DNA of 64,000 nt from the NCBI GenBank assembly GCA_035084275.1, contig CM068745.1, forward strand, positions 1,674,001-1,738,000. The letters run 5' to 3'. Position numbers and translations under genes: made by a program. This DNA is from Hydrolagus colliei. Its lineage: Eukaryota. Shown here one piece after another: positions 26,630 to 60,142 of the stretch; position 1 is the stretch's first letter; each line of letters opens with the position of its first letter. The notes under the pieces were generated by a model. That model was given only the letters and a program-made list of their open reading frames with translations. It did no database searches and had not been told where the DNA came from.

Positions 26630-27312
26630 TTCATAGAATCATAGCATCATAGAAACATAGAATCGTAGAATTTTACGGCACAAAAGGAGGCCATTCGGCC
26701 CATCTAGTCTGTGCCGGCTTTTTGAAAAGAGCAACTCAATCCCACTGCCCAGCTCTCTAACAGAACCTCATAGACCTGCTCTCCCTAAATAAAGATCTAA
26801 TTCTCTTTTAAAAGTTGTTATCGAATCTGCCTCCACCACCTTTTCAGGCAATGCATTCCTGATTCCAACAACCCGCTGAGTGAAAACATTTCTCCTCAGC
26901 TCCCCTCTGCTTCGTTTTGAAACTATTTTAAATCTGTGACCGCGAGTCACTGATTCGCCGACCAGTGAAAACATTTTTTCCCTATTCACCCTGTCAATTC
27001 CCCTCATGATTTTATAAACCTCTATTAGGTCTCCTCTCAACTCTCTCTGTTCCAAAGAGAATAACCCTAGCCTATCTAGCGTTTCCCCATAACTGAAGTC
27101 CCTCAATCCTGGCACCATCCTAGTAAATCTTCGTTGTACCCTTTCCAATGCCTTCACATCCTTTCTGTAGTGTGGTGACCAGAATTGAACACAGTATTCC
27201 AGCTGAGGCCTCACCAAAGTCCTATAGAGGTTAGTCAGCACTTCCTGACGTTTGTTCTCTATACCCCTATTTATAAAGCCTAGTATCCCATATGCCTTCT
27301 TAACAGCTTTCA
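26630..27312 (-). mobile_element. CR1 LINE 3' fragment, same family as the 12.9-14.4 kb copy
   Basis: ORF 26768-27370 LEYCVQFWSPH...RGDLIEVYKIM; near-identical 3' UTR and tail. Confidence 0.93.
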
Positions 27313-28434
27313 CGTAGGAGGCACCTCCCAAGGTGCTGCAGCAATGTCTGCAAGTGCTCTGAGATGCCATCCGGCGTGGTGTGCACTGTATAAATCAAAG
27401 TTGTTGTTGTTGTCCGACAGACAGCTCTAAAGTGAATGATCAATTGTATTTGGAGGATTATTGGCTAGAGTCCACTGAGGTACCAAGGTAATTTGCAGGA
27501 CTGGGAGACTGTGCGAGGTGTTGTAGGAACAACACCTTTGTCCCGTGAAACACTTGGATCGTTCTTTGAATTTTACATTCGAAGCCAAATAGCCTTACAG
27601 CTTAACACTAGGTAGGATTTCAGACCTCCTGTTCGCTAGCAAATCCTCCTACTTCTCCAAAGAAGACGGCATCATTCACCTGCAGTTTCTAACATTCTCA
27701 CCACCAGCCTCAAGAACATAGGCCACTCATGTCCATATTCTATCAACAACAACTAAATTACATTTGTACGGTGGCTTTCATGTCAGGCGGACGTCGCAAG
27801 GTGATATCGGTCACCAAACAAAAAACATTGAAAAGGCATTGGTGCAAATAATGTACTGATCCTTTTTCCTCACACAGCTCAAGCCCTCCACACACAGCTT
27901 CCGTCTGTGGCCCAGATGTTTATGAGTTCATGGTGGAAAATGACGTAAGTGCTAAAGTTGAACGCCAACTTTGCTCACAGTTATTAATAAGTTAGTAAAA
28001 TATCTGGGGGGAGCTTTCATCTTCACAGTGGAATCAGAGCATTATACTGTACATATAATAGGATGTTTAACTTAAGATAAGAATGATAGGGTCAGATACC
28101 TCACCAAGTGAGTCATAATCACACACAGTCATTTAAATGATGTTCTTGTTTATCCCCACCCTCCAGTTTTCTCCTCTCCTGTAGAAGGTTACTCTTGCTG
28201 GGCTTTTGATCCATTAAGGGGAAGCAACCATTTACATGGTCAAAAAGGAAAGTCTTCAAGTGAGACTGGACGTGGAAAGGGAATTGGGTCCAGTGTTGCT
28301 TCACATATAAAATAGGAAGAATGGCCGTTTAGATAAGATACCAAAGAGCTGCCCCCAATTGTGGAGCATATTTCAGTATAAATCAAATCTCTTTACACCA
28401 TTGCTTGTAGTATTGTAAATAAAATTGAAACACA

Positions 28435-32680: not shown

Positions 32681-32778
32681 ATGGCAACAGAAGACAGGAA
32701 GATCCTCTGTGTTGGGCTGGTTTGTCTGGATATTATTAATGTAGTTGATTCCTTTCCAGTTGAAGACACAGACACAAG
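32681..32778 (+). CDS. KHK: KHK first coding exon ([33 protein letters not shown])
   Basis: Acceptor ttgttacag|G lies immediately before the ATG at 32681, implying an upstream non-coding exon. Donor AG|gtaaat. Matches the KHK N-terminus ILCVGLVxLD. Confidence 0.95.
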
Positions 32779-34466: not shown

Positions 34467-37400
34467 CAGTATACCAGATTTCCTCTGCCAAAATTAAAAG
34501 TTCACAACCATGCTTTTTTTTTTAAAGTCCCTAAAAATGTCTTCATTTGATTAGTTTTTTTCTCTTGTGTTAGATGTATATCCCAGAGGTGGCAGAGAGG
34601 TGGAAATGCCGCCAATTCCTGTACAGTGCTGGCATTGCTCGGCACTCCGTGTGCTTTCATGGGCTCACTGGCACCCGGACGAGTTGCAGAGTGAGTTTAA
34701 AGTATAATTGTTATTGCCATATCACATCCCCTCACCCTGCCCGTGGCCGTGTTGCTCAACACCTCTGGACGTGTTGCTCATGCCTGTGTCTGGGAATTTT
34801 GCTCGGTGACTGAAGTTTGTTGTTTTCGTTGGCTTGTTGAAAATGATATTTTATTGATAACTTCAATATCAAAGCTTGTGCGAGAGCCTAATATGTACAT
34901 AACATTAGGACACAATAGGGTGAGTATTGTGCCCGAAAAATGCTCCAAGAGATAAACAGAAGGTTTGATAATACATCCTGAGAAACTGAGTTCATTAGAT
35001 CAGAGATTGACCTACTAATAGTTGCACTTTTATTCTGACTGTCCTGATTTTACTGTTTTGCTGAGTTAAGGTTCCATTAGGATTGGTTTTCTGAGGCTCT
35101 TGAAGCCAAGCATCAATGTAGAAAGATTGAAACAAAAACAGAAGTTGCTGGGAAAACTCAGCAGGTCAGGCAGCATCCATGGAGAAAGGAAAGTGAGTCA
35201 ACGTTTCGGGTCCACGACCCTTCATCAGAACTCAACTTAATGTAGAAAGATTGACTTCTTCCCCCCATCCACAAATCCAATATTTCAATCCAGATCAGGC
35301 TTCTTAGAAGAGTTCCCCCTCCCACTAATTTCCATACCCTCCCTCAATCTCTCAACATAGAAAGAGTCTGGAAGGAACCAATGTTGATGGGAGTCCATCT
35401 GTAAAGCAGTTCATTCTTCAGCTGCATTATATTGAAAGATGAGAACTAGTGAAAAGGTTCCTTCCCATGTGTGCCAATGACTTACACTTCCATCTGTGCC
35501 ACTGGACCCCTGAAACCAGTGTTGTCCTCCCGGCCATTTCATCATCGTGTGCCGTGGTCATTGTTTTCAAATCTATTCACTCCTTGGCACCTCCCCATCT
35601 CTCTGACCTACTCACTTCCCAATCCACCACCCGACTCCTCCGCCTGACTGGCACCAGCCGTCTGCTTGTCCCTCACGCCCTCCTCTCCACCATTGGAGCT
35701 TGTGTATTCAGCCACTAGGCCCTAAACCTCTGGAACACTCACTCATTCAATCCCCCCCACCTCCACTGGCTCGGAGTCAAGCACTCTGAGACCCTGCGTG
35801 GAGGGCGCTATATATGAGCAAGTTGTATGGTGCCCTTTACTTAACACTTAACAAAATGGATTTATTAATTATCTAGTAAACAACCATTTCATTTTCATTG
35901 CTCGTTAATGATCTGATAGAGGGCATCCATCATTCCCTCTGTAAACATGGCTCTCATAATATGACTGTGTTTAAACATGTTTTACACTCAGCATATAAGA
36001 GGCCCATTGTCTCCAATCTTGGATATCTGAAATAAACCCAAACCTGAAATGCACATGGCAACTCACCCAAACAGGAGAAATACAGATCAATCAGGTTAAA
36101 CCATAGTCATCCATTTTAATACTTGTAATACTGGAGAAAAGGGCACTCAACAAAACAAATTCTATCTTCTCCTCCTAAGAGTAAAAGGTTTGGCATTAAG
36201 GAGTCTTGCATATATAAAATACTTACATTAACAAAGAATGTATGGATTACAGCACAGAAATAGGACTCTCAGCTCAACCAGTCTCTGCTGGTGTCAATGT
36301 TTTCAAACCAGCCTCCACCCATTCCTTACTCCCTACCTTTCTACTCCCCAAACCCTAATGGGAAGGTCTAGCTTCCTTGGAAACGCATTATTTTATATTT
36401 CAAAAGTAATGTGTGTACAAACAGTGAAATATTGCAAAAGTGTAGATTTCAATAAATAATAAAAATGATTCAATGATGCTTTGTTTCCAATGAAGGCATG
36501 TCACCTGGATGGGCTGAATGGCCTGCTTCTTCATCTTAATTTATTTTGCATGAAATATTGGCAAGTATATCTGTGGCTTCCTTTCCTAATTTTAGATTGA
36601 CTTCATTGTATTTATTATCTTGTTTGCTATCTTTTCATTACTTTTTGTTTGTTTCTTCCACCCTCTTTCTCTCTGTCTCTCTCAGATTTCATTCTTCATT
36701 CTCGTTTACTACCCCCTCACCCTCCTCTATGCATTCAGTTTGGGAACATTCTCTTCCAAAATAACAGTAGCTCAAGCAGATGTCCATAGTCTGTACAGCA
36801 AGAGAATTGAAGGATAATATTTTGGTTGGAGCAAAGAGTATGGTGACTAGACGCAGCCCAGTTGAAAGCCAAAGGGAAAGGAGATATAATGGAGATGAAA
36901 AACTGGGCTACTGAACTGAGGTAAACTCTGACAATGAGACAGACTTTCTCCAACATAATTGTGCAATGCACTATTTCTAATTTTTTAAACTTTCTATTGT
37001 GAACAGAGAGGTGGGCATTAACACCGACAAGAAAATTACACTCGTATAGCGCCTTTCACACACATAATAAATAGAACAAAGGCTATTGAACAGTGGTTAC
37101 TGTTCAGCAACAGCCAACAGTTACAGATGGCTCCTTAAGGGAACCTGGACATCTATATATACACGTATATGCACACACGCACACACGTAATTAAAATTTT
37201 CAGTCGTTGTTGGTGAGGATGGGAGAGTCACCAAGGTAAGGATGTCCTATTTTGGTTACATGAGACAAAGTAGTGGAGAGCTTGCTCACACCATACTGTC
37301 TGGAGACGAGGGGAGTGAATGAATGCACCTGGGAATTGCAGTTTCACAGCATCAATAAAATGGGCTAAGCCACAGGAATGATTTTGACCTAAAGATTTCA

Positions 37401-40400
37401 ACCCCTCAAACAAATAACTGGAGCAAATTGAGTGGGAATTGACCATTCTTGAATCCTTAATGGAGTTGGGTTAATGTATGAACGACTGCTCTTGTTGTTA
37501 CAGTTTGAAAATAGAAGACATTTCGGGGCAGAAAGATGGGTGGGGAGCAGTCTTCCAGTTACAGATATACCTAGCTAACCACATGTTTTCATATCCAAAC
37601 TCAGCTCCAAATATGCTTCCTACATGCTCTTCCCTGCACCCTCACCATGTTGAAGTGAAAACTCTTTGCAAACTCTTTCAACCCTATTCTATTCTCAAGA
37701 TTGGATCTCCTTACTTCCTTTGTCTTCTCTCCCTCCTACAATCTACCCATGTTTAAGTCTCAAGTCCTCGGTAGGAAGCAGCACACAGATACTTCTTGAT
37801 TTCTCTCATCCTCTCTCCTACTCTGCTGAACCTCGTGTTAACCTGTCCTGTAGCTCTTGTTATCTCCATTTACTAATTTGAAGAACGGATTAATTTACGC
37901 AGGTATCCACTTATGACATATAGAACCTAAGATTATTTTTACTGTTCAGTGAGCATTTTCAAAGATATTGGGTCACTTTGTGAAAAAAGATGAAGAATGT
38001 TGATGCTGGAAAAAGGAAACATTTTTCCATCTGCTCTGCTCGGTTGGGTGAAAAAAAAGTGGTATTCCCAGCCTGGATATACTCTTATTTCACCGCTTAA
38101 ATCTCAGATTGAAACTCTTCAGTCCTTTGCTCTTTAATTTTTACTTCCGATGTCAAGTTGATCCCCAGTATGACCAGTATTCACCCTGCACACTGAATGC
38201 GAACAGGGTTTTTCCGTACAGAGGATATTGCAGCCAAATATCACACCCTACATCAGGGACCTCCTAACCCCTTACCAACCTGCCTGCCCCCTCCCTCCGC
38301 TCAGCAGGCTCCATCCTGCTCCATGACCCCCGACCCACCCGCCCCACCATTGACGTGAGATCCTTCAGCCGCTCTGTCCCCAACCTCTGAAACTCCATCC
38401 CACAGTCCCTCTGCCTCGCCCCCTCCCTGGCCTCCTTCAAGTCCCGCCACAAGACCCTCCTCTTCGACGGTCCCATTGGCCACTCCAAATCCCTCCCTTT
38501 CCCTCCACTCTCCCCGTCCCCAGCTCGGGTGTGAAACATTGACTGTCCAGCGCCTTGGAACGTCCTCCTGACATGAAAGGCGCTATACAAGTGTCATTTT
38601 GTTGTTGTTGAATTGTATCCTTGATCCTGACATTAACAGAAGTATATTCCAATGGGATAAGGAGGGATGGCTGTCAAACAATGCAATGCTTCACTAACAA
38701 TAGGAACCATGTCAAACACCATGATATGATACTAGTGGTGCTGACAATATCAAAACAGGAGCAATTGAGGTTTCAGTTAAGCGGTCAAAAGATCAGTGAT
38801 TGATGTGAATACTTCTCATTTGGCCTGTACTGGTTCAGGATGATGTGTGTTTTAAAGTGGAGGAGGGGGTAAGGGGGGGAGTCCATGTTTGCTAATAAGC
38901 ACAGAAATAATTTGAATGCGCGTCAGGTGCAGAACTAACAATACCACATAAGGCTCAACTCAATTTGGTGCAGTACAAAGAGACAGAAGATCGATCAGGA
39001 GAGGGCAAAGAGGAGGGAACCATTCTGAAGTTCAAATGGCCCATTGCCAACCCCTTCTATAAACACTCACCACACCAGAGCTGCAACATGCTGATCAGAA
39101 ATTTAAAAAAGGCTATTAAAATATTGAGATTTTCTTGAGAACAAACCATTCCAGTCTGGGAACCAAGATCCACTGGGAGAAAGAAAATAATTCAAATTTG
39201 TCCCCCTCAAGCCCGGGACTGAAAGTTGGCCCCTTTGATATATTGTAAAGTTCCTGTGCGCAGGTTTGTGAAACAGATCAGGTCATCCCTTCCATTTAAA
39301 GAGACAAATGAACTGCGATCGTGGCACTTGATGAAAGACTAATTTTGGGGGAATGAATTTCCTGCTTGAAGCACTTCCTGCAGACCCTTACAGATGTGGC
39401 AAAAAAGCATTCGCTCTCTCCTTCTGGAAACCTTTCCTCAGGACAGAAGGAGCTCTCAACAACAACTTCCTGTTGTAAAAGTGAAATGCCAGACACAGAC
39501 ATTGCTTCATTGCTTATTCTGGCAAGTGGCCTTTGCAGCTCATTGATTTAAATTCAGTTTCCCATTTAATGAAAATCCTAACATTTTTACCTTATTTGTC
39601 TGGAAGTCCGTCCTCTTCCAGCTTTTATTGCATTTAAATCCACATTATTGTGGCTGCACTTCCTGTAGGTCTAGTCTGGGAATGTGGGATTCTCCACGTG
39701 TGTCATTCATGTTTAATCAATTACTTTTATTTATCCTTCCTCCAACACCCACCCAACCCGTTGTCACCTTCACCACCCAATCTTCCACTGAAGAGAACCG
39801 TCATAGTACCTCTCACACCATCTCCACTTCATCACCACTCACAGCTTCTCCTCTAGCCTCTGCACCATCACATGTGGTGTTCCTCAGGGCTCTGTCCTTG
39901 GTCCCGTCATCTTTTGTATCTACATGCTTTCTCTTGGTGACATCATCTGTAGACATGAGGTCAACTTCCACATTTATGCGAATGACACCCAACTCTATCT
40001 CTCTGCCTCCAACCTCGAACACTGCTGTCCCCCAGAGAATAAATTTCAAATTCCCCATCTTTGCCTTGAAGGCGCTCCATGGCCTGGCTCCTTGCTATTT
40101 CTGTGACATGCTGACCCCATACCCACCTGTCCACTACCTCCGCTCAGCAGGCTGTGGCCTGCTTCACATTCCCCACCCTGCCCATCAGTGGTTGGGTCTT
40201 CAGGCTGTCTGCCCCCTACCCTCTAGAACTCAATCCCACATTCCCATTGCCTCTCTCCCTCCATTGCCTCACGTCAAGGTGTGTCTCAAATCCCTCATCT
40301 TTGATTTTGTCTTCGGCCACCCTCCATCCTCCCCGATCCCGATCTTCAGCTCAAGTCCAAATCCCTGATTGTCTAGTGCCTTAAGATGTCCTTCCAATAT

Positions 40401-43400
40401 GAAAGGCCTACACAATTATAATTATATATTGTTCTGTATTGTAGGAGTGACATTTTCTCCAACCACTTATTGAACAACTGAGCAAAATCCCTTTAAAAGT
40501 TTCAAGCAGACAGAGATAGGACTTGAACCATTTTCTGATTCTGCGTCAACAACAACAAAATTACATATACTATTGTAGTACCTTTCACGTTGGAAGAATG
40601 TCCAGGCACAACAACAACAACAACAAAACTTACATTTATATAGCGCCTTTCACGTCGAGAGGACATCCCAAGCGCTGTACAGTCAGGTAGGACAAGAGCA
40701 GGGTGGGAAGGATCAGGGCAGGATAAAGCATAGTAGGAAAAGTAACTGTATTAGTGGGCGAAACGTGGCAGCCAAATTGCGCACAGCAGTGTCCCACAAT
40801 CAGTCACGGAAGTGGGACTAGGGGCAAAAGGGGGTAAAGAAGCAAAAGGGGAGGGGTCGAGGCAGGGGGAAGAAAGGCAGGAAAGTCGACTGTATACTTG
40901 TGGGCGAAACGCGGCAGCCAAATTGCGCACAGCAGTGTCCCACAAACAATCGCGAAAATGGGGCCAGGGGAGAAAGGGGGAAAAGAGGGTAAGGGGGGAG
41001 AGGGTGGGATGGGTTAGGGTTAGGGAGGAAGAGGGGGGAGAAAGGGGGGCAAGGAAGAGTGGGAGGGAAAGATGGGTGGGGGCAAGATCAGGAAGAGGGA
41101 AGAGGGAGGGAAGGGGAAAAGGGAGGAGAGAAAGTGGGGAAAGGGAGTGAGGGAAGATAACAGGTCTGGTCTCTGCGTTACCTCACAAGAGGTGGGAGCT
41201 GTAATCTCCGAGCTCATATCAGAATGCCACAGCCTCTATTCCCTGATGAGAAAGGAGATTCCATTTATTACCAAATGTAAAAATTATTAATTATTTAATT
41301 ATTAGCTTACCCGCCCCCACCGCCCATCATTCCTCAATTCCTGATACAATAGATAGTGACATAAGTGAAACAATAGTCACCATAATTAAATTCTTAAAAG
41401 TGCATTATGTTTGTTCATAATATACTCAAGTGTTGGATATTTACAACATGAAAGTTAATGATGACGTTGAGCAATCAGTGGGTTAAACGTCTTTTGTTTT
41501 AAAAAAAATTGAGAATCGCCCTACTCCGTGTTGAATCTTCCTCCCCTAAAGTTTTCCCCTCTATAAATATCTCGCAGTTTTGTTTATGACGACCTCCGAA
41601 GCCATGGGATTGATGTGAGTAATGTGATTGTTCATTCAGGATGTTTCTTCCCAGCCTCCATTGTCATCAGCAACATAACAAATGGCTCCCGAACCATCCT
41701 CCACAAGAACAGGTTTGTATACCACTGTAGGATTCCTTTCTAAATTGTTTCATTGGGATGCATTGCTGCAAGACTCCGGTATTCCTCGTGTATTGTCACT
41801 GGGATTATTTAGCATATTGGTGCCATTATAGTGCAGGAGAAATGATACCTAAATCAGTACTGTATGCTGTTTGTCAAATGCATTTCGTTTGTCATCTCCA
41901 AATTACTAAAAAAAACAAAATGCTTACAAAATGCTTCTCTCCAAACGCAGGTTTGGAAAGAGAAAAATCTAGAATTGTACCACGACTGGGTTTTTCACAA
42001 TTCAATCGTGAAGCATAGATTTTTTTAAAAAAAATTTAAAACTGCAACCATGTATGCTTCCGTAAAGACCAGGTAACAATACAACGGGAAACGGCTTCAG
42101 AAATCTCGGTGATGTTCATCGGACTGGATTCACACGTTTCATTCCTGTGAGACATTGAGGTCTTATTATTATACAATGGAAAGTCTGTGTGTTGAGAGGC
42201 TCAGAGTGGTATTCCCTGCACTAACAACGCTACTTATACTTTTGTCCCCTGCCTTCTTGTTGGAAGTCACTCAAACGATGGAGTTCTAGCCCAATCAAAC
42301 CGGTTCCCTTTCCTCTTTTTTCAAAAACAGCCGAATAAAATCCACTTTTCCCCTCACCTTTCTGTCCTTCCCGAAGCTTTATCACAGACGACTTTCAAAA
42401 GCGCGGCATTGACATCCGCGGCGTGGCCTGGCAGAGCGTGGGGACCACTCCCTGCGCTTGCTGCATCGTCAACTCCGCCAACGGCTCCCGAACTGTGGTT
42501 CTTTCTGACATGTAAGACTCGCCCTTCAAAACGTCACACGCTTAAAATGTGCCAATGCAGAAATGCTCTCTTCAGGGCCAGTTCACTGTGGTAAAGTCAC
42601 ATTGTGCATCCTGCAGCCAAGTCCATTGGAGTGTGTTGTCTGCACATTTTGCAGTTAAATTTGAGTTTTGCTGAGCAGCCAGAATGGCATTGGAGTCTAA
42701 CTGTGACAACAGCTGGGGCAAGTGGATTTGGGAGCAGAGCAATTTTACACACTTCAGATTTATCCTAGTCACTACCTGATATATATTACAGCTCTGCTTT
42801 GAGCAGACACAAATCCAGCGTTTAGGAACTGGACACCAGTACAGTAATGGGACACAAACGTACAACTTTCCCCTAAATCATCAGCTGGGATGGATCTGCA
42901 CAGAGGGTCAGGAGCTTCCTCAGTACAGTGGAGCCTAATTTCCTTGATTGGAATAGGCACAAAATTGGAATCTTGCCACCCCCGCCCACCTCCCCCAGTC
43001 CTGGTCTCTTAGAAAATGCAGGATCAGCGAGGAGCTTTTAATGAGATAATTTTATAAGCCAAGACCGGATGGTTTAAAAAATCTGGATTTTAATAGCCTT
43101 GATGCTTGCGGAGCAGGAAGTACAGTATTGACCAAAATTTCCATTGCATATTGCCTGCAGCTCGCAAATTCTGCAAGCTCCCTCGTTTGTTTCAGTCAGC
43201 CGGCTGTCAGGTGGCTGGGATGATCTAATGAGCAACTAAGTAAGGTAGGAGAGGATGTCCAGTATATGGAATTGTACTCCAATTGTGGGAGAAGATATTA
43301 TAATAAAATGTCAAACAACTACTGAAAATGAAGAGGGAAAATTAGCAAGAGTAAAGGAAAAAAATCATTGGCTTTTAGATGTACAGTTAGACCTCGATTA

Positions 43401-46400
43401 ACGTTGCTTCAGTTGATATTGTTCCGTTATTACGTTGTTGATACATAGGAGGGCATGTATTCACTCAACAATGCGACGTTCGCTATTACGTTGTTTGCGT
43501 GGGCAGGTAAACAAACTACTTTGGGTAAGTAGGCGTATATAGAGGGTAAGTAGGCATATATAGAGGGTAAGTAGGTGTACATAGAGGGTAAGTAGGCGTA
43601 TATAGAGGCTGAACGCCTGGTATTTTTTTTGCAGTCGTTTCGTTTAACGTCGTTCCACGTAAAATCGCGCTGTTCGCGAACACAGCTGCGACGTGTTAAA
43701 AGCGAGGACTAAGTGTATCCTTCTGCGTTTACAGGTGTAGCTGTTGATCGGTGCCTGGTGACTTCTCACTGATAGCAGGGCTTAAGTACTCAGAGTAAGG
43801 TGACAGAGTTGCCAGACTGGAGCAGAGTTGGAGTGAGGAAGGAAATTTCCAAATAAAAAGAAAGTTGTGATGTTGTAATTGGGAGTGGACAGATGGTTAG
43901 TATTGCTAGTAAGCTACTGTCAGGAATTGTGTCTCATGGTACAAACTGAGTTTTTTGCAGACACATGAAGGTAATCGGGCTCCTCTAATGGTTCACTGGT
44001 TAAATGTCCCACATGGTGTAGCATCACATGGGCTGAGGAGGTGCCATCTTTGGATTGGGCAAAGTTGGCTGTTCTTATGTGGAATGTGATGGCTTACGAG
44101 GTCCTCACACTGAGGTTCCCTGTCTAGTTTCAACCAGCGAAAAATACCACTTGGATTTAGTATTGTGGAGCTGCTGGTGTCTGGATATGTCAAGGGGTTG
44201 TGTGGGAGACAGAAGCTTTCTGCTGGCAGGACTGCTTACAACGCCAAATGCCTTTCCCGTGAATGCAATTGAAAACAAATTGGAATTTCTTCCACTTTAC
44301 ATCTTTCAGCAGCAGATCCCTGTCAGGATTATATAAGGGTGTCACATGTATTATTCAGCTTGTAAATAGCTCACAACAAAACATCATCCTTGCTCCAGTT
44401 CAGCTGTTGGTTTGAAGGCGTTATGTAAGACCACAAAAGTGGAAGGACAGAGCTGTTTTGGGGATAGTTTCTGGATCCTATGGAAAAGTCTTTCTGCTTT
44501 GGCACACCTCGGATGCTTACAACAGTGCATGACATTGAGATCAAATCATCCCCAATGAACAATTCAGAAATGACTTGAAATAAATGTTTATGAAAAGAAA
44601 TCTCTTAATTCGCACAAATTGCATTCTAAAAATGAAAATAAAGTTAAATTCTGTCATTTTTTTTCCCCAATCAAACATTTCTTCCTTTTGCCGTTTTCAA
44701 ACTCTGTCTGGCTCCAGCGTTTTACAAGGGGGACACGGCACTTCTGTGGTGTGTTAAATAAAACCATTTTAACCAAATTGTATAAACTAATACTGCAATG
44801 GGGAACTGTTCTCTTCGTGTAGTTTCCATTAAACTTTTGTCTGACTTCAGCTTTGAATGTCAGTCTGTAGTTGGGAGGAAGCATTTGGAGCCACTTCAAG
44901 CGTCTTCCTGTTGAGCGTTTTGTCGGCCGTCTTTTTCACAGTGAGCTGAGCAAATTCTTGACCTGGGAAGCCAGCTCCACTTCAAACATGAACAGCCAAG
45001 TGCATCCTCAGAGCCTTTCCACTGAGCTGTGAGCTTCAAATTCTGGCCCCAATTACAGCTGAATGTTGTACCCCAAATCCAGTCAAGTGTGCATTTGATC
45101 AGCGAGAGCATCCTCTCTTTCCCTCCACTGCCCCTTCTCTCCTTCTCTTTCATTCCTCCTCTCCTCTTTCCTTTCCTCCTCTCCCCCTCCTCTCCTTTCT
45201 TCCGTCAATCCTACTCTCCTGAAGCCGTATTTCTGACTTTTGGTGGGTTTTGGTCGGCAGCAGGCCTCCAAAATCTAAACCAGTGACCATCCTTTTTGTA
45301 CCAGGCCAAAACAGTGTGTATCAGGAGGCTCTTTGACAGCAGAGCCTGATCCTGTTTTCACCCAATGTCAACTCCCTAGGTGAGCTCGACTGCAGTAACC
45401 CAGCTGAGATCAATAATTCAGCAAAAAATAAAACCACCCAAATTGTGCTTTGCAATCTTATCTATATGGCTCAGAGGTGTACCCTCTACCCATGAGGGGA
45501 TTGGGGGAAAACTATCAGGAATCTGCTTGGCTGGTATCCAGCCTCCTGCCAACTGTTTCACATAGCAGCAGTAATGCTATGTGTGGAGCCAAAGCTCTAA
45601 CTCTCATCTGACATTTCGCTGGGTACAAGGCCAGAGGGGGGAGGGATTCAGAGGACTGTGGGAGCGGCAGCCTTAAAGAAAAGTCCAGACACATGAAAGA
45701 AAGTACTCGAATTCCTTCCATGGTATTTGATTTTAATTGTTTTTCTGTTAATAACTCCCATTGAATCATACAAACTTGTTCTGTTTGAGTACATGTGAAT
45801 CAAATGTATTTAAATGAATAACAGTAAATTTGCATGATCCTTATTTTGATTGGTGATGTAATTTTGTTGCTGGTATATTATCCCCAAACAAATATTTGGG
45901 GTCTAGTTTGCGTGGTGCAAAATTGATGGCTGTGTTAACCATGTGGAAACTCATCTGCACAGAGGGAAATACAGCCCTCCTCAATTTTTCACTGAACAAC
46001 CAATGAAAAGGGTTAATGGGATTTTCTGAATTGTTTACATAACAGAGGGCAACTGTATGCGTTTGCACATGGTTAACCCAAATGGTAAATTAGATTCCCC
46101 AATGCAATTTTAATTTGTATATAATTAATTCATTGCCACAGATGTTCTCACAAAGTATAACTTGCCCTGTTCGTAACACAGGGCTACGGTAAGTCAGGCA
46201 ATGTATTGAAGTATTAACCCACGGTTGTGCTTTAGGAATCTGCCCGATGTAACTATAGACGATTTTAAGAAAGTTGATCTCTCGAAATTCAAGTGGATTC
46301 ACTGGGAGGTGAGTAAACTACAGAGTTGTTGTTATTGTTTGTTGTTGTTGTAGCTATGGGGCAGGGCAGTTAAATGAAAGGAATGCACTGTAAACAGTCA

Positions 46401-49400: not shown

Positions 49401-52400
49401 CCCTTTGATGTGCTTCAAGGTGTTTTGATGTTCGCGTCAATTGCAAGGGTTGTTTTTTTATAAAACGTTATCATTTGATGTACAGGGCAGAAATGCATCG
49501 GAGCAGATTGGTATGATACAGAGGGTTGTGCAGTATAATGCAACTGTGCCAAAAGACAACCAAGTCACCATCTCTGTGGAGGTTGAGAAACCAAGAGAAG
49601 ATCTCTTACCACTCACTGGACACGGAGATGTGGTAAGTGAACATTTACCTGGTCAATCTTGTTGCAAGAGGAACAAGGTACTGTATATTGAAGGCTGTTG
49701 TCAACTTGGAAAGGAGAAGAGCTGCCAAAGCTTTGTAGTGCAATTTTTTTGTCATATGTGATCTTCCTTTGAGGTTAGGGGGAACGGGGTCATAGAATTA
49801 TACAGAACAGAAAGGGGGCCATTTGACCCACCGTGTCTGTGCCAGCTCTTTGAAAGAGCTGTCCAAATTAGTCCCACTCATTGGGAGAGCCAGGAGCTGA
49901 GCTGGTTCCAAGGTAACATGCTTGAAGCAACGCGGCAAAGTGATCAAGTCATCCTTCTGTGACGGTCTCAGTGATGGTCGGGTTTCTGAGCCAGGTAGGT
50001 CCATTTGTACTCCCAAGGCTCTGCTGGTGACAGTGCCAGCTTGGATCATTGGTAGGGTTTGGAAGGACGGACCAGTGGCAGAGATTATTCCCCTCAGCTT
50101 CTGCTAACCCAGTAAACCAAAGCCCTAACGCAGAAGGTAAGTCCTAGTTGGATAAGCAGAGGGTGGCTTGCCAGTTAGCATTTTGAGTGGCAAGGTGCAA
50201 AGTTTTGCCTGGTTAAACTCCAGCAATATGCTAACACATGCTTTGGCGTACCTTAGATAAGCAGATTGAATCCCTCCAGAGAGAGTGTGCATTCCATACC
50301 AGACACGGAGAAAGTTCCAGGTGTAGATGGTATACAGATGTGGAATCCTCAGCCTTCACTATGGTGTTGGATATCTGTCTGCTATCCAAGACTCATTGCC
50401 CTGGTGACATCATACACAAATACAGAGTGCTGAATCGCTCCTCCAATAAAATATAATAATAATAATCATGCATTTGTTATAGGGCCTTATCATGTCTTCC
50501 AGACGTCCCAAAGCGCTTCGCAGAATATACTGTAAAGTGAATTGACTGTGTATTTGTGGGTGAATCGCGGCAGCCAATTGCACATAGCAGTGTCCCCCAC
50601 AAACAGTCGTGGGTTGAGATGACCAATTTATTATTGTTTTTCTTTTCTTGAGGGATTATTATCAGGCGTGTGGAGTAAGGAAGAAAGTTTGGCCCTGACC
50701 TGCCTAGAGTTGAACCCAGGTCTTTCGCTTGTGAGGCGCGTGCTCTAACCACTGAGCCATACCTGGGCTTGCTAATGATAGAAATGCTGTTTAGAACCCA
50801 TCTGAGAGTAGTTAATGACTAGAGCAACTTACCAGGGACAGTGTTTGAAACCAGGACAATTTAAGAAGCAACTTGATGAGGTGATGAGAGGGAGGAAGGA
50901 TGAGATTAGATGGGTCAAGGGGCCTTCTTCATCCAAACTCATCTTGTGTTCAGAGAAACCTTTTTTGGATCATAAAGAGTTGTGGAGAATATCATTGTGT
51001 AACATACATATTTGGTGTTTCGGGGCCCATATTATCTACATTGACATGAACAGTTAACAAAAAATGCCATTAACAAAAAATTAACAAAAAAATGTTTTTT
51101 TAATTTTTTAAAACAAAAATTAACAAAAAATTCCATGTATTTCAAAATGATGTGTTTTTGTGTTACTGTAATCTTAGGTTTTTATCAGTAAAGATGTTGC
51201 GGTTTACTTAGGGTACAAATCAGGCCCTGAAGCAGTGAAAAACCTGTACAGCCTCATGAAGCCTGGGTGAGTACAGTGCTATTGGATTCTGAATTTTAAC
51301 TGCGTTAGCTGTCAACTTGCTTAGTGATGTTATCACATTATCACATTACACTGTTCAACTACCGGATCCAGGTCAGAGAATCTGGATATCACAACGTAAA
51401 CTTTGTTTTCTAACAATTCACCTGAACAGGCAGATGGGTAAAAAACAACAACCAAATGACATTTGTCGAGTGCCTTTCACATCGGGACAATGTCCCAAGG
51501 CACCCAACAGCACTCTGCCTTACACCCCAGAACTCCATTAGAGTGTCAACCTAGACTGTGGATTCAAAGTCCTGATGTGGGACTTGAAGCTACAATCTTC
51601 ACAATTATACAATCTTAAAATTGTATACTTTTACGCTGCCTTGCTTATCCTTGATAAAACAAGACAGCACTTAAGAGATAGATGGAGGATTAAAGTGAAA
51701 ATCTGATTGAAAGCTAAGGATGACATAGTTGTGAACTCTTGTGTTAAATGATTGTGTGGTCGATGGTTGGTTTCAGTGCCTACCTGATCTGTGCGTGGGC
51801 TGAAAAAGGAGCTGATGCCTGGGGCCCTGATGGATCTGTTCATTCTGATGCTTTTCCTCCTGAAAACCTTGTGGACACTCTGGGAGCAGGAGACACCTTC
51901 AATGCCGGTGTATTATTTTCACTGTCCGCTGGTAAGCGTCAGTGAGATGGTATTGATAGAATACTTTATATATTTTTTAGTTAGTCCTTTTTTGGAAAGT
52001 AAAAGACTTGATCGAAGTGTAGATTTTGTTCTTGCACGTTATTTGGGGTTTTGTATTGTTTTCTGGTAGCTTTTGAAGACCCTACACAGTGTTGTCCCAG
52101 TGTTTAAGTGGGATTATCTATGTCGCTCCAATTCGCAGGAATTCCCCCGATTTTGCAAACTGATTTAAGTGCAGAGTTTCCATTGCTTCCTGAGGGAAGT
52201 TCCGCACTTTCATTTCAGGATTAAAGAATCCTTTTAGTTGCCGCATTTTAGGCCCAATGATCCTGATGCCCTCAAACAGCTTTCTGACAAGATAACAAAA
52301 GAGGTGAATTTTTTAAATGAATGAATGCATTGATAAACATTGATTTGGTATCAGCCGTAACCATTTGTTTGTAGCGCTCTCGCTTCTGAGTGAGAAACTT

Positions 52401-52707
52401 GTGGGTTGAAACAATCCAGGATAAAGCATTGATCATTCGGGATGTGTCCGGGTTCAAATTAGCTGCCGTGTTTTGATGACAAACGTAGTTGCTAACTACA
52501 CATTACAGAAACATTTCTGTGAAGCACTTTGAGACGTTTTGATGGAATTAAATATTTTACATAATATGATGTGTCTCTCACGTTACTAATGAGTATTACA
52601 TGGGCTGTTGTTTGCTGACAGGTAAGTCCATCCAGGAGGCACTCAAGTTTGCCTGTCAAATTGCTGGGAAAAAATGTGGCATTCTAGGATATGATGGAAT
52701 CGTCTAA
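32681..52707 (+). CDS. KHK: Ketohexokinase (hepatic fructokinase, PfkB family), spliced gene: join(32681-32778,34574-34690,[41578-41712 OR 42377-42511],46236-46308,49486-49632,51178-51266,51777-51931,52622-52707), 299 aa
   Basis: Exons translate to [20 protein letters not shown]...[16 protein letters not shown]...FKWIHWEGRNASEQ...[13 protein letters not shown]...[14 protein letters not shown], recognisably KHK. All introns are GT-AG, phases are consistent, and exon lengths 98/117/135/73/147/89/155/86 sum to 900 nt. Confidence 0.97.
33231..33461. mobile_element. Tigger/pogo-type MITE
   Basis: TA|CAGTAAC...GGTTTTACTG|TA ends. Confidence 0.55.
33487..33810. mobile_element. Tigger/pogo-type MITE with imperfect ~35-bp TIRs
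   Basis: TA|cagtaacagcccatttatccgacaccctcaggacctg versus caggtctcgagggtgccgggtaacaaaggttttactg|TA. Confidence 0.7.
34130..34320 (-). mobile_element. Older SINE 3' half in KHK intron 1
   Basis: (taa)n tail, diverged core. Confidence 0.75.
34403..34468. repeat. (CA)n microsatellite upstream of KHK exon 2
   Basis: Direct reading. Confidence 0.9.
34574..34690 (+). CDS. KHK: KHK exon 2 ([39 protein letters not shown])
   Basis: Polypyrimidine tract + tag| acceptor, GA|gtgagt donor, 117 nt, PfkB GGN motif. Confidence 0.97.
35131..35238 (-). mobile_element. 108-bp Penelope-like/retrozyme-like mini-insertion with 16-bp target-site duplication
   Basis: AATGTAGAAAGATTGA is repeated exactly at 35115-35130 and 35239-35254. 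The insert resembles chondrichthyan Penelope-like termini (from memory) and contains a hammerhead core. Confidence 0.75.
35191..35238 (-). ncRNA. Minimal type I hammerhead ribozyme motif (PLE-type, palindromic stem III)
   Basis: Minus strand reads AAG-U-UGAGUU CUGAUGA A GGGUC-GUG-GACCC GAAAC GUU^ GACUCA-CUU. Core boxes are intact, stem I is 6+3 bp, stem II is 5 bp, and an AACGUU palindrome replaces stem III. Confidence 0.72.
35555..35825 (+). mobile_element. L2 LINE 3' fragment
   Basis: [17 protein letters not shown] translation; gagggcgctatata tail. Confidence 0.65.
38260..38610 (+). mobile_element. L2 LINE 3' end
   Basis: ccttcaagtcccgccacaagaccctcctcttcgacgg...gaaaggcgctatacaa...(ttg)n. 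Confidence 0.82.
39870..40410 (+). mobile_element. L2 LINE fragment with a large internal deletion
   Basis: ggtgttcctcagggctctgtccttggtccc ([10 protein letters not shown]) and YANDTQLY jump directly to RINFK...ALHGLAP. Confidence 0.8.
41578..41712 (+). CDS. KHK: KHK alternative exon 3A-like ([45 protein letters not shown])
   Basis: ctcgcag| acceptor, AG|gtttgt donor, 135 nt, phase 2-2. FVxDDLR...GSRTIL pattern resembles mammalian exon 3A; it is the upstream member of the pair. Confidence 0.92.
42377..42511 (+). CDS. KHK: KHK alternative exon 3C-like ([45 protein letters not shown])
   Basis: Long pyrimidine tract + gaag| acceptor, AT|gtaaga donor, 135 nt, phase 2-2. VAWQS..TP..CCI.N motif is characteristic of exon 3C. 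Confidence 0.93.
43384..43715. mobile_element. MER6/Tigger-like MITE containing a 21-bp x4 tandem repeat
   Basis: TA|cagttagacctcgattaacg ... cgtgttaaaagcgaggactaagtg|TA. Confidence 0.65.
43523..43608 (+). repeat. 21-bp tandem repeat gggtaagtaggcgtatataga x4
   Basis: GTAAGT at 43525, 43546, 43567, 43588. Confidence 0.9.
46236..46308 (+). CDS. KHK: KHK exon 4 ([24 protein letters not shown])
   Basis: tttag| acceptor, GAG|gtgagt donor, 73 nt. Confidence 0.96.
46800..47132 (-). mobile_element. Deu-type SINE, full length (KHK intron 4)
   Basis: Head, core, tail. Confidence 0.92.
47600..47865 (-). mobile_element. Degraded, internally deleted CR1 fragment
   Basis: tatttataaagcctagtatcccatatgc shared with the other CR1 copies. 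Confidence 0.6.
48594..48900 (+). mobile_element. Deu-type SINE (KHK intron 4)
   Basis: Head, partly deleted core, tail. Confidence 0.9.
49486..49632 (+). CDS. KHK: KHK exon 5 ([49 protein letters not shown])
   Basis: tacag| acceptor, GTG|gtaagt donor, 147 nt; inside ORF 49441-49761. Confidence 0.96.
50453..50759 (-). mobile_element. Deu-type SINE (KHK intron 5)
   Basis: Head, core, tail. Confidence 0.9.
51178..51266 (+). CDS. KHK: KHK exon 6 ([30 protein letters not shown])
   Basis: cttag| acceptor, GG|gtgagt donor, 89 nt. Confidence 0.95.
51777..51931 (+). CDS. KHK: KHK exon 7 ([52 protein letters not shown]), catalytic PfkB signature
   Basis: tttcag| acceptor, G|gtaagc donor, 155 nt; DTLGAGDTF anion-hole/catalytic Asp motif. 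Confidence 0.97.
52622..52707 (+). CDS. KHK: KHK last coding exon ([27 protein letters not shown])
   Basis: tgacag| acceptor, TAA at 52705-52707; C-terminus matches KHK AGKKCG..G.DGIV. Confidence 0.95.
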
Positions 52708-56091: not shown

Positions 56092-56496
56092 CACTGACAC
56101 ACCATCGGGGGGACATTAACACTGACACACCATCGGGGGGACATTAACACTGACACACCATCGGGGGGACATTAACACTGACACACCATCGGGGGGACAT
56201 TAACACTGACACACCATCGGAGGGACATTAACACTGACACACCATCGGGGGGACATTAACACTGACACACCATCGGGGGGACATTAACACTGACACACCA
56301 TCGGAGGGACATTAACACTGACACACCATCGGGGGGACATTAACACTGACACACCATCGGGGGGACATTAACACTGACACACCATCGGAGGGACATTAAC
56401 ACTGACACACCATCGGGGGGACATTAACACTGACACACCATCGGGGGGACATTAACACTGACACACCATCGGGGGGACATTAACACTGACACCATC
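56092..56496. repeat. 28-bp minisatellite cactgacacaccatcggggggacattaa, ~14 copies
   Basis: Exact 28-bp periodicity. Confidence 0.95.
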
Positions 56497-56570
56497 AGAC
56501 ACAGAGGTCACAGGTCACTGTCACAACCTCTCAATCTGCTTTATCATCATCAGTGTCAAGTGTGGCAAAG

Positions 56571-58040
56571 GGGCTGGGGGCGGGGCTCAGGCTGGGGAGG
56601 GCGGGGCTCAGGCTGGGGGGTGGGGCTCAGAGGGGCGGGGCTCAGGCTGGGGGGCGGGGCTCAGGCTGGGGGTGTGGGGCTCAGCGGGGCGGGGCTCAGG
56701 CTGGGGGGGCCGGGGCTCAGGCTGGGGGGCGGGGCTCAGGCTGTGGGGGGCGGGGCTCAGGCTGGGGGCGGGGATCAGGCGGGGGGGGCGGGGCTCAGGC
56801 AGGGGGGTGGGGCTCAGAGGGGCGGGGCTCAGGCTGGGGGCGGGGCTCAGGCTGGGGGCGGGGCTCAGGCTGGGGGCGGGGCTCAGGATGGAGGGGGGAG
56901 GCTCAGGCTGGGGGCGGGGCTCAGGCTGGGGGCGGGGCTCAGGCTGGGAGCGGGGTTCAGGCTGGGGGCGGGGCTCTGGGGGGGGGGCTCAGGTGGGGGG
57001 GCGGGGCGCTGGGGGAAGGGGGGGGCTCAGGAGGGGGGCGGGGCGCTGGAGGAAGGGGGGTGATCAGGTGGGGGGGCGGGGCTCTGGGGGAAGGGGGGGC
57101 TCAGGCTGGGGGCGGGGCGCTGGGGGAAGGGGGGGGCTCAGGTGGGGGGCGGGGCTCTGGGGGAAGGGGGGCTCAGGCTGGGGGCGGGGCGCTGGGGGAA
57201 GGGGGGGGATCAGGTGGGGGGGCGGGGCGCTGGGGGAAGGGGGAGCTCAGGTGGGGGGGCGGGGCGCTGGGGAAGGGGGGGCTCAGGTGGGGGGGCGGGG
57301 CGCTGGGGAAGGGGGGGGATCAGGTGGGGGGCGGGGTGCTGGGGGAAGGGGGGGGCTCAGGTGGGGGGGCGGGGGCTCTGGGGGAAGGGGGGGGATCAGG
57401 TGGGGGGCGGGGTGCTGGGGGAAGGGGGGGGCTCAGGTGGGGGGGCGGGGTGCTGGGGGAAGGGGGGGGCTCAGGTGGGGGGGCGGGGCTCTGGGGGAAG
57501 GGGGGGGCTCAGGTGGGGGGGCGGGGTGCTGGGGGAAGGGGGGGGGCTCAGGTGGGGGGGCGGGGCTCTGGGGGAAGGGGGGGGCTCAGGTGGGGGGGCG
57601 GGGCTCTGGGGAAGGGGGGGGCTCAGGAGGGGGGGCGGGGCGCTGGGGGAAGGGGGGGCTCAGGTGGGGGGGCGGGGCTCTGGGGGAAGGGGGGGGCTCA
57701 GGAGGGGGGGCGGGGCGCTGGGGGAAGGGGGGGCTCAGGCTGGGGGCGGGGCTCAGGTGGGGGGGCGGGGCGCTGGGGGAAGGGGGGGGCTCAGGTGGGG
57801 GGGCGGGGCGCTGGGGGAAGGGGGGGGCTCAGGTGGGGGGGCGGGGCTCTGGGGGAAGGGGGGGGGCACAGGCTGGGGGCGGGGCTCAGTTGGGGGGGCG
57901 GGGCTCTGGGGGAAGGGGGGGGCTCAGGCTGGGGGCGGGGCTCAGTTGGGGGGGCGGGGCGCTGGGGGAAGGGGGGGGCTCAGGTGGGGGGGTGGGGCTC
58001 TGGGGGGGGGCTCAGGTGGGGGGGGCGGGACGCTGGGGGA
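56571..58040. repeat. G-rich minisatellite (18-bp ggggctcaggctgggggc grading into a ~40-bp unit with gggggaagggggg), G-quadruplex prone
   Basis: Direct reading; ends at the assembly gap. Confidence 0.95.
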
Positions 58041-58240
58041 NNNNNNNNNNNNNNNNNNNNNNNNNNNNNNNNNNNNNNNNNNNNNNNNNNNNNNNNNNNN
58101 NNNNNNNNNNNNNNNNNNNNNNNNNNNNNNNNNNNNNNNNNNNNNNNNNNNNNNNNNNNNNNNNNNNNNNNNNNNNNNNNNNNNNNNNNNNNNNNNNNNN
58201 NNNNNNNNNNNNNNNNNNNNNNNNNNNNNNNNNNNNNNNN
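58041..58240. other. Assembly gap (200 N)
   Basis: Run of exactly 200 N, typical of a fixed-size scaffolding gap. Confidence 0.99.
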
Positions 58241-58665
58241 TCCCCCACACACACACAGCCCCCCACACACACACAGCCCCCCCACACACACAGCCCCCCC
58301 CCCACACACACACAGCCCCCCCCCACACACACACACAGCCCCCCCCACACACACAGCCCCCCCAAACACACACAGCCCCCCCCCACACACACACACAGCC
58401 CCTCCCACACACAGCCCCCCCCCCCACACACACACACAGCCCCCTCCCACACACAGCCCCCCCCCCACACACAGCCCCCCCCCCACTCACACACACACAC
58501 CCCCCCCCCACACACAGTCCCCCCCCCACACACGGCCCCCCACACACACAGCCCCCCCCCCCCCACACACACACACAGCCCCCCCCCCACACACACAGCC
58601 CCCCCCCCCCCACACACACACACACACACCATCACACATATACACAGCCCCACTCACACACACAA
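58241..58665. repeat. C/CA-rich repeat (cacacacagccccccc)n
   Basis: Direct reading. Confidence 0.93.
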
Positions 58666-58804
58666 TGTCTCCAAGCACTTAACTCTGTTAACTGGGAGTA
58701 CAAACCGGGGCGGGGAGGGGGTGGGGGTGACATGAAGTTAACGGTCATAAAGAAGGAAAGCTCTCAGGAACAGCATTAGGTGTGCACAGGTGGTGGTAAC
58801 ATTT

Positions 58805-59545
58805 TATTTTGCGTGTACTGTACAGTGGTTTGCGGGTACTGTACAGTGTTTTGCGTGTACTGTACAGTGGTTTGCGTGTACTGTACAGTGGTTTGCGTGT
58901 ACTGTACAGTGGTTTGCGGGTACTGTACAGTGTTTTGCGTGTACTGTACAGTGGTTTGCGTGTACTGTACAGTGGTTTGCGTGTACTGTACAGTGGTTTG
59001 CGTGTACAGAACCGTGGTTTGCGTGTACCGTACAGTGTTTTGCGTGTAACGTACAGTGTTTTACGTGTACCGTACAGTGGTTTGCGTGTACCGTACAGTG
59101 TTTTGCGTGTACTGTACAGTGGTTTGCGTGTACTGTACAGTGTTTTGCGTGTACTGTACAGTGTTTGCGTGTACTGTACAGTGGTTTGCGTGTACTGTAC
59201 AGTGTTTTGCGTGTACTGTACAGTGTTTTGCGTGTACTGTACAGTGTTTGCGTGTACTGAACAGTGTTTTGCGTGTACTGTACAGTGGTTTGCGTGTACT
59301 GTACAGTGTTTTGCGTGTACTGTACAGTGTTTTGCGTGTACTGTACAGTGTTTTGCGTGTACTGTACAGTGTTTTGCATGTACTGTACAGTGGTTTGCGT
59401 GTACTGTACAGTGGTTTGCGTGTACTGTACATTGTTTTGCGTGTACTGTACAGTGTTTTGCGTGTACTGTACAGTGTTTTGCGTGTACTGTACAGTGTTT
59501 TGCGTGTACTGTACAGTGGTTTACGTGTACTGAACAGTGGTTTAG
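58805..59545. repeat. 21-bp minisatellite gtgtactgtacagtg(g/t)tttgc, ~35 copies
   Basis: Direct reading; each unit has the palindrome ACTGTACAGT. Confidence 0.95.
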
Positions 59546-59578
59546 AATTTTTCATGATTGTTTCCTGAATTAGACACA

Positions 59579-60142
59579 ATGGAAGCTGCCGTCACTACGT
59601 ACCAAACGAGGGCAAGAAAAGCGCAGTGTTTGCCTGAATCACGCATCGATCGAAGGCGGACAAAGATGGCTTCTCGCCAACTCGACACAGATGAGGATGA
59701 AAATACATCCGACGATGAGGAGAGTGACGGCGATGAAAGTGTACAGAGTAGTGACTCAAATGATGATCGCGAACAAGTGCAAAGTCCTGTCGCTGCGGCG
59801 CAGAGCTCAGACGAGGAGAACGTCAATCCAAGTACACGCCTCAGGACCTCGTCGAGTAACGTGTTTTCAGACAGTGACTCTAGCTCAGGCAGTGAGATTT
59901 GGAACAATCCGGTAAGAAAGATAAAAGGTAATTCTCGGCGTATCTTCGTACAGGACGGGGGAGAGGACAGCGGTGAGGAGGGAACGTCGGCCACAAATTT
60001 ATCAGTGGGGACTGAAGACTTGTCGCAAAGAGAGAAAAGAATATCAATTGCCCGGAAGAGGAAGAGGCATTTGGAAATGAAGAGATTGGCAAAGAAGACA
60101 CGGCCTCATCACTTGAACAGTGGAATCGGACATTCCTCTGAG
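59579..60142 (+). CDS. CCDC82: CCDC82 first coding exon (188 codons, MEAAVTTYQTRARK...GIGHSSE)
   Basis: Acceptor tag| at 59573, ATG 59579, donor GAG|gtttga; ORF 59558-60148. Confidence 0.87.

What the first reader, a model, noticed from the sequence alone, without database searches (positions are those of the whole stretch)
41578..42511. Both mutually exclusive KHK exons (3A-like and 3C-like) are intact in a probable cartilaginous fish
Seen: two 135-nt phase 2-2 exons with open frames and canonical splice sites, separated by a 664-nt intron. Established: mammalian KHK-A and KHK-C arise from duplicated 135-nt exons, and KHK-C is the high-activity liver/kidney/gut fructokinase. Inference: the duplication and isoform switch predate the split of jawed vertebrates, i.e. 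exist in an animal with little dietary fructose, suggesting an endogenous (polyol-pathway) role. Both exons are multiples of 3, so double inclusion or skipping stays in frame and NMD cannot enforce exclusivity; the 664-nt spacer also argues against simple steric exclusion. The position equivalent to human KHK-A Ser80 (recalled as an AMPK site) is Gly here.
Basis: partly seen in the sequence, partly recalled or inferred. Interest (0 to 1): 0.7.

Follow-up and report, generated by a model that had tools for sequence, protein, structure and literature searches.

The report
Ancient either-or fructokinase exons in chimaera
This fish gene for fructokinase (KHK) carries intact counterparts of both alternative exons that make the two human enzyme versions, which is real but already on record; the less ordinary part is that its 'A' exon resembles the single exon of invertebrates and lacks the tyrosine blamed for human KHK-A's weak fructose binding, so it may work differently from the human one.

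Summary
Observation confirmed. Exons at 41578-41712 and 42377-42511 are 135 nt, phase 2-2, AG/GT, 664 nt apart, inside an intact KHK gene (32681-52707, +) of a probable chimaera. They are orthologues of mammalian 3A and 3C: trees put them in separate groups, and a chimaera- or cartilaginous-fish-specific duplication is rejected (AU p<0.001). Both are as conserved as the constitutive exons. The age inference is right but not new and too young: a sea lamprey model has both exons, and a 2021 supplement dates the human event to Chordata. The two in-frame 135-nt exons and a sizeable spacer (188 nt) are also the human arrangement. Ser80 is Gly here, confirmed; Gly is the common state outside mammals. 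Added here: exon A is the ancestral-like copy (11 of 11 invertebrate exons score closer to it). His112 stands in 128 of 129 distinct non-primate A exons; Tyr112, the proposed cause of human KHK-A's low affinity, was seen only in monkeys and apes. Splicing, tissue switch, kinetics and the polyol idea are untested: no RNA run was listed. A word search of the scan's notes found no earlier KHK finding.

The parts
32681..32778 (+). KHK coding exon 1 (from ATG)
   Evidence: tblastn with Callorhinchus KHK; GT donor, open model
34574..34690 (+). KHK exon 2 (Gly-Gly-Asn sugar-binding motif), ends in phase 2
41578..41712 (+). Exon 3A orthologue, 135 nt; Gly80, Arg108, His112, Asn114 (human numbering); ancestral-like copy
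41713..42376 (+). 664-nt GT-AG intron between the two alternative exons; branch-point-like CTCAC 24 nt before the 3C acceptor, nearest upstream AG at -48
42377..42511 (+). Exon 3C orthologue, 135 nt; Cys98-Cys99, Arg108, Leu112, Asp114; derived copy
46236..46308 (+). KHK exon 4
49486..49632 (+). KHK exon 5
51178..51266 (+). KHK exon 6
51777..51931 (+). KHK exon 7 (GAGD catalytic motif)
52622..52707 (+). KHK exon 8, coding part to the TAA stop

Best explanation
This is the single, intact ketohexokinase gene of a probable chimaera, holding the two orthologues of mammalian exons 3A and 3C, which are likely spliced mostly one-or-the-other to give two 299-aa fructokinase isoforms. Shown: gene anatomy, open frames, conserved catalytic residues, orthology, equal conservation of both exons. 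Inferred: one tandem duplication before the lamprey-jawed vertebrate split (in print: before tunicates or lancelets split off); the upstream copy kept the ancestral character (His112/Asn114) while the downstream copy changed fast early (Cys98-Cys99, Leu112, Asp114) and then froze, giving the likely high-affinity liver/kidney/gut form. Exon choice is likely set by splicing regulators, as A1CF and hnRNP H1/H2 do in mammals, not by frame-dependent decay or steric clash, and would therefore be leaky, with minor both-exon and no-exon transcripts. The swapped 44 residues form part of the lid and dimer clasp over the sugar site, so the swap would tune substrate affinity and stability rather than chemistry.
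For: Anatomy and open frames. D15, G41, N42, N45, R108, E139 and GAGD are present (roles from PMC2651755). Each exon is 40 of 45 residues identical to Callorhinchus against 223 of 254 for constitutive exons; 33 and 34 of 45 against Heterodontus with 193 of 254. Exon tree of 82 rows: all 31 downstream copies, lamprey included, form one group at 100/100 on a stem of 1.1 changes per site; all 40 upstream copies at 94/78. AU tests on 38 rows reject own (p 2e-7), holocephalan-only (3e-8), chondrichthyan-only (6e-4) and lamprey-only (0.015) duplications. Petromyzon marinus model XP_075930118.1 holds both exons. 11 of 11 named invertebrate single exons score closer to the upstream exon (mean identity 19.1 versus 12.7 of 44). 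Full-length A-only and C-only models are annotated in the same shark or skate species (Heptranchias, Leucoraja). Mouse tissues use 3C in liver and kidney, 3A in heart, lung and spleen, with the both-exon form much lower (PMC6464065, passages). Regulators: PMC7490524 review, passages.
Against: No transcript evidence for this species. Of 39 cartilaginous-fish models fetched, 19 carry both exons (some with a partial A exon), 17 A only, 3 C only (a set picked through A-type and both-exon queries, and models are not counts of transcripts), so strict exclusivity is not shown and may be weaker in these fish. Monophyly of the upstream copies is unstable: in the 38-row tree they need 2 changes and are one group in 2% of bootstrap trees. 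Trees rest on 44 columns, LG+G4 without mixture, with long lamprey branches. No tunicate or lancelet sequence was retrieved, so the published Chordata date was not checked. Regulator motifs near the exons were counted but are uninformative. No kinetic data for any fish isoform were found.
Confidence: 0.85

Rival explanations
1. The mammalian division of labour is fully ancestral: fish KHK-A is already the low-affinity peripheral form and KHK-C the high-affinity liver form, serving fructose made inside the body by the polyol pathway.
For: Leu112, Asp114, Cys98 and Cys99 are invariant in 41 of 41 distinct C exons. Both exons are equally conserved. Three sorbitol-dehydrogenase-like exon copies lie on contig C22. 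Mouse KHK-A also has His112 and is still the peripheral form.
Against: The fish A exon is only 17 of 44 identical to human A, no more than to a primate C exon (18 of 44), and is closer to invertebrate exons. It lacks Tyr112, proposed as the cause of the 7 mM versus 0.8 mM Km (PMC2651755), and Ser80. Gene presence says nothing on flux; aldose reductase was not searched.
Confidence: 0.4
2. In cartilaginous fish the two exons are often included together, and the 344-aa product is a real third isoform or a regulated way to lower activity.
For: Double inclusion is in frame. 19 of 39 chondrichthyan models and 34 of 215 proteins from two searches carry both exons, as does the lamprey model. Both splice donors match the U1 consensus equally (7 of 9).
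Against: Such models exist in mouse too, where the both-exon form was measured as much lower than A or C (PMC6464065). Annotation pipelines list the longest model first (general knowledge). A doubled helix-strand unit that includes a core strand is unlikely to fold into the active dimer (inference from PMC2651755).
Confidence: 0.12
3. One exon is a decaying relic, or the pair arose by a separate duplication in this lineage.
For: No direct transcript evidence in this species.
Against: Both exons are open with canonical sites, as conserved as constitutive exons, and lineage-specific duplications are rejected by AU tests.
Confidence: 0.02

Closest known systems
Human and mouse KHK exons 3A and 3C (KHK-A / KHK-C; Hayward and Bonthron 1998 as cited in PMC2651755)
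   Same: Same gene, same two adjacent 135-nt exons in the same order and phase, same 44-residue swapped region, Arg108 in both, Leu112/Asp114 in C; in-frame both-exon and skip forms are annotated in mouse as well.
   Different: Spacer 664 nt versus 188 nt in human. Fish A has Gly80, His112, Asn114 where human A has Ser80, Tyr112, Asp114; only 17 of 44 residues identical.
KHK of Callorhinchus milii, sharks, rays and sea lamprey (RefSeq models)
   Same: Both exons are already annotated in these species; 39 of 44 residues identical to Callorhinchus in each exon (89%).
   Different: A different species; nothing in the exon pair sets it apart from Callorhinchus beyond five residues per exon.
Tandem exon duplication-derived substitutions (Martinez Gomez 2021, PMC8373072; 2022, PMC9741552; Abascal 2015, PMC4465641)
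   Same: KHK is a listed event, last common ancestor given as Chordata; 84.3% of such human events are shared with sharks.
   Different: The passages and rows I saw give the age only; they do not say which copy is ancestral-like or trace His112/Tyr112 and Ser80.
Single-exon KHK of invertebrates (sea cucumbers, acorn worm, ribbon worms, insects, copepod, sponges)
   Same: His112 in 11 of 11, Gly80 in 9 of 11, Asn114 in 9 of 11, as in the fish A exon.
   Different: One copy of the segment in each of the 11 models; no C-type signature.

Membership tests
Ketohexokinase (PfkB family) | Full-length homology to KHK with sugar-binding and catalytic residues (D15, G41-N42, N45, R108, E139, GAGD) | tested here: met
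   residues from PMC2651755
Ketohexokinase (PfkB family) | Phosphorylates fructose to fructose-1-phosphate | not testable with these tools
   needs an enzyme assay
KHK exon 3A/3C pair | Two adjacent homologous 135-nt exons of the same phase between exons 2 and 4, A upstream of C | tested here: met
KHK exon 3A/3C pair | Each exon orthologous to its mammalian counterpart, not a separate duplication | tested here: met
   C group 100/100; lineage-specific duplications rejected; support for the A group is weaker (94/78, and split in the smaller tree)
Mutually exclusive exons | Transcripts carry one exon or the other, rarely both or none | tested here: inconclusive
   no RNA holder listed; A-only, C-only and both-exon models all annotated in other cartilaginous fish
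Mammalian-type KHK-A/KHK-C switch | C in liver, kidney, gut; A in other tissues | not testable with these tools
   no RNA data for this species
Human-type KHK-A | Tyr112 closing the fructose cleft and Ser80 AMPK site | tested here: not met
   His112 and Gly80 here; Tyr112 seen only in simian rows
KHK-C type exon | Cys98-Cys99, Leu112, Asp114 signature | tested here: met
   present here and in 41 of 41 distinct C exons; the signature was derived here, and rows were classed as C by the Cys pair, so only Leu112 and Asp114 are independent of the classing

The most novel reading that the evidence does not exclude
The textbook polarity is reversed: KHK-A is the ancestral animal fructokinase and KHK-C the early-chordate innovation, and the low-affinity, AMPK-regulated, protein-kinase-like KHK-A studied in human cells is a late product (Ser80 fixed in mammals, Tyr112 only in monkeys and apes). 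Fish and other His112 KHK-A enzymes would then be competent fructokinases or have another ketose as main substrate, and mouse KHK-A would be an imperfect model of the human isoform at the very residue proposed to set its affinity.
Probability: 0.35. Interest if true: 0.5.

Novelty: already known. Interest (0 to 1): 0.2.

Why it matters
The finding as stated adds one more species to a dated and annotated event. Its use is comparative: a slowly evolving fish A exon shows what KHK-A looked like before mammals changed it. That makes one open question, what KHK-A is for, cheaply testable: compare Km and substrate range of fish A, mouse A (His112) and human A (Tyr112), with swaps at residue 112. If His112 enzymes bind fructose well, the human isoform's weak binding is a primate novelty, which bears on reading mouse knockouts and on isoform-selective KHK inhibitors. 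If they bind poorly, the published Tyr112 explanation is incomplete.

Tried and rejected
RNA evidence: no RNA holder listed; the one run is DNA-like contigs and may be the source. dN/dS: no related genome is held, so only protein identity was used. Tunicate or lancelet KHK: none among the 120 listed hits of a sea-cucumber query or the 20 representatives I had named out of 150. Steric exclusion through a distant branch point: rejected, the AG-free zone before 3C is only 48 nt. Weak versus strong donors: both 7 of 9. Pairing-based exclusion: 59 inverted pairs in 34500-46400, the 25 longest shown; the longest look like dispersed repeats in intron 2, and I saw no convincing docking/selector pair, but without related intron DNA this cannot be tested. 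G-run and A/U motif counts around the exons were too few to read. A fold of the Heterodontus A isoform (pLDDT 83) added nothing; a fold of the both-exon form was not obtained, so its foldability is open. Mouse KHK-A kinetics: not found in searches; the 2023 mouse/human structure paper is not held. No paper on fish KHK isoforms appeared among the 20 listed of 795 in one search or the 8 of one search; searches returned none. Rows left out of trees: Narcine first copy (mis-modelled start), Hemitrygon and Mobula (one-residue deletion upset my fixed cut), Elysia (no motif match).

Full report
Observation. The window holds two 135-nt exons at 41578-41712 and 42377-42511 on the + strand, each open in one frame, with AG before and GT after, and a 664-nt intron between. 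tblastn with Callorhinchus milii KHK located seven more coding exons from 32681 to 52707. All introns are GT-AG. With either exon the gene gives an open 299-aa protein; with both, 344 aa; with neither, 254 aa. Sugar-binding and catalytic residues named in PMC2651755 (sections 4, 12 and the first part of 13 read) are all present. The exons share 64 of 135 nt and 16 of 44 residues, each is single-copy in the 1.0-Gb genome, and one public contig spans them without a difference (possibly the source). The whole protein pairs with Callorhinchus at 100/100 and 88% identity, so a chimaera is the likely host.

Identity and age. The upstream exon matches A-type KHK chains best and the downstream exon C-type chains. 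In a tree of 82 exon peptides all 31 downstream copies, from lamprey to monkey, form one group at 100/100, and all 40 upstream copies group at 94/78. On 38 rows, AU tests rejected a duplication private to this species (p 2e-7), to holocephalans (3e-8), to cartilaginous fish (6e-4) or to lamprey (0.015); all 30 vertebrate copies stood on one side of a branch at 94/91, but the upstream copies were not one group in that smaller tree. These trees have 44 columns and long lamprey branches; four rows were left out (see Tried and rejected). A Petromyzon marinus model carries both exons. Both exons are as conserved as the rest of the gene: 40 of 45 residues each against Callorhinchus, versus 223 of 254 in constitutive exons.

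What is in print. PMC8373072 (passages and three supplementary rows seen) lists the human KHK event with last common ancestor Chordata; its methods required an event to be seen in sharks, rays or lamprey before looking further back, and 84.3% of such events are shared with sharks. PMC9741552 (abstract, passages, one supplementary row) repeats the date. PMC4465641 (passages; 12 of 20 supplements searched) lists KHK and reports all 60 of its events in at least one distant aquatic vertebrate. PMC3424414 was seen in passages. Both exons are also in RefSeq models of Callorhinchus, sharks and rays. I could not check the Chordata date: no tunicate or lancelet protein came up.

How exclusion may work. 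A branch-point-like CTCAC lies 24 nt before the 3C acceptor and the AG-free zone is 48 nt, so the 3A donor and 3C branch point are about 640 nt apart, too far for steric clash (threshold from general knowledge). Both donors match the U1 consensus at 7 of 9. In mammals A1CF promotes 3C and hnRNP H1/H2 oppose it (review PMC7490524, passages; primary papers not read). In mouse, both-exon and skip models are annotated, and the both-exon form was much lower than A or C in heart, kidney and liver (PMC6464065, passages). Regulated, leaky choice is the likeliest mechanism here too; this is inference. Of 39 cartilaginous-fish models fetched, 19 have both exons, 17 A only and 3 C only; Heptranchias and Leucoraja each have a full-length A-only and C-only model. 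The set was drawn through A-type and both-exon queries, and models are not transcript counts. No RNA holder was listed for this DNA.

What the comparison adds. All 11 named invertebrate KHKs have one copy of the segment, and all 11 score closer to the upstream exon (mean identity 19.1 of 44, against 12.7 for the downstream exon and 14.8 for human A). The C group sits on a stem of 1.1 changes per site. So A is the ancestral-like copy and C the derived one. Among 215 proteins from two searches, 129 distinct A exons have His at position 112 in 128 cases (the other is Asn, Hymenochirus), and 41 distinct C exons have Leu112 and Asp114 in 41. Tyr112, which PMC2651755 proposes as the probable cause of the Km difference (7 mM for A, 0.8 mM for C), appeared only in human, gorilla, bonobo, gibbon, colobus and tamarin rows; lemurs and tarsiers were not sampled. 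Ser80 is the AMPK site of human KHK-A (PMC6482012, passages). It is Ser in 10 of 10 mammalian rows listed, and also in coelacanth and cod, but Gly in the correctly cut cartilaginous-fish rows, lamprey and 9 of 11 invertebrates. The fish A exon is 17 of 44 identical to human A and 18 of 44 to a primate C exon. Human KHK-A properties should therefore not be carried over to this exon. Against over-reading this: mouse A also has His112 and is the peripheral form, and I found no kinetics for it (PMC13685710 passages, PMC11332825 abstract, passages and section 7). I found no paper stating this polarity in searches, which cover only the held library.

Polyol idea. Sorbitol-dehydrogenase-like exons are in the genome, three copies on contig C22. 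That permits but does not show endogenous fructose. KHK is present even in sponges, so its presence in a carnivorous fish needs no special explanation. Aldose reductase was not searched.

Verdict. Real, correctly described, and already known in its main claim; interest 0.2. The residual lead is the His112/Tyr112 and ancestral-A point, testable with four recombinant enzymes. The scan's own notes held no earlier KHK finding.

Noticed in passing
G000 contig C22: L004 1501-1668 (+), L005 1501-1668 (+), L003 1504-1677 (-): Three sorbitol-dehydrogenase-like exon copies within about 110 kb; L004 and L005 lie 12 kb apart on one strand, and L005 is the most diverged. A downstream domain match was found only beside L003, so whether these are three genes, relics or duplicated exons is open.
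   Followed up: partly
window 42377-42511: Exon 3C holds 12 CpG (observed/expected 1.05) against 0.43 for the window and 0.37 for the other coding exons; Poisson p about 0.001-0.005 before correcting for 9 exons. Third-position GC is 73% versus 52% in 3A. Could reflect splicing signals or low germline methylation.
   Followed up: partly
P0408, P0412, P0413, P0426, P0428, P0172, P0400: Several shark and ray models begin the A segment in mid-exon, suggesting an internal acceptor in exon 3A; the window has an AG at 41638-41639 near that position.
   Followed up: no
window 37022-41150: Inverted copies of dispersed repeats in intron 2, upstream of exon 3A (pairs I1-I4).
   Followed up: no
window 12973-14385 (-) and 26771-27394 (-): Long stop-free stretches (471 and 208 codons) that read like LINE reverse-transcriptase fragments (resemblance recalled, not tested).
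   Followed up: no
window 59558-60145 and 62016-62330 (+): Acidic open frames downstream of KHK, likely exons of the neighbouring gene; not identified.
   Followed up: no
window 56400-59600: G-rich and short-period tandem repeats around a 200-N gap near 58.0-58.2 kb.
   Followed up: no
P0029: A Platysternon protein named 'interferon-induced guanylate-binding protein 1-like' is a KHK model with both exons: a database misnomer.
   Followed up: yes
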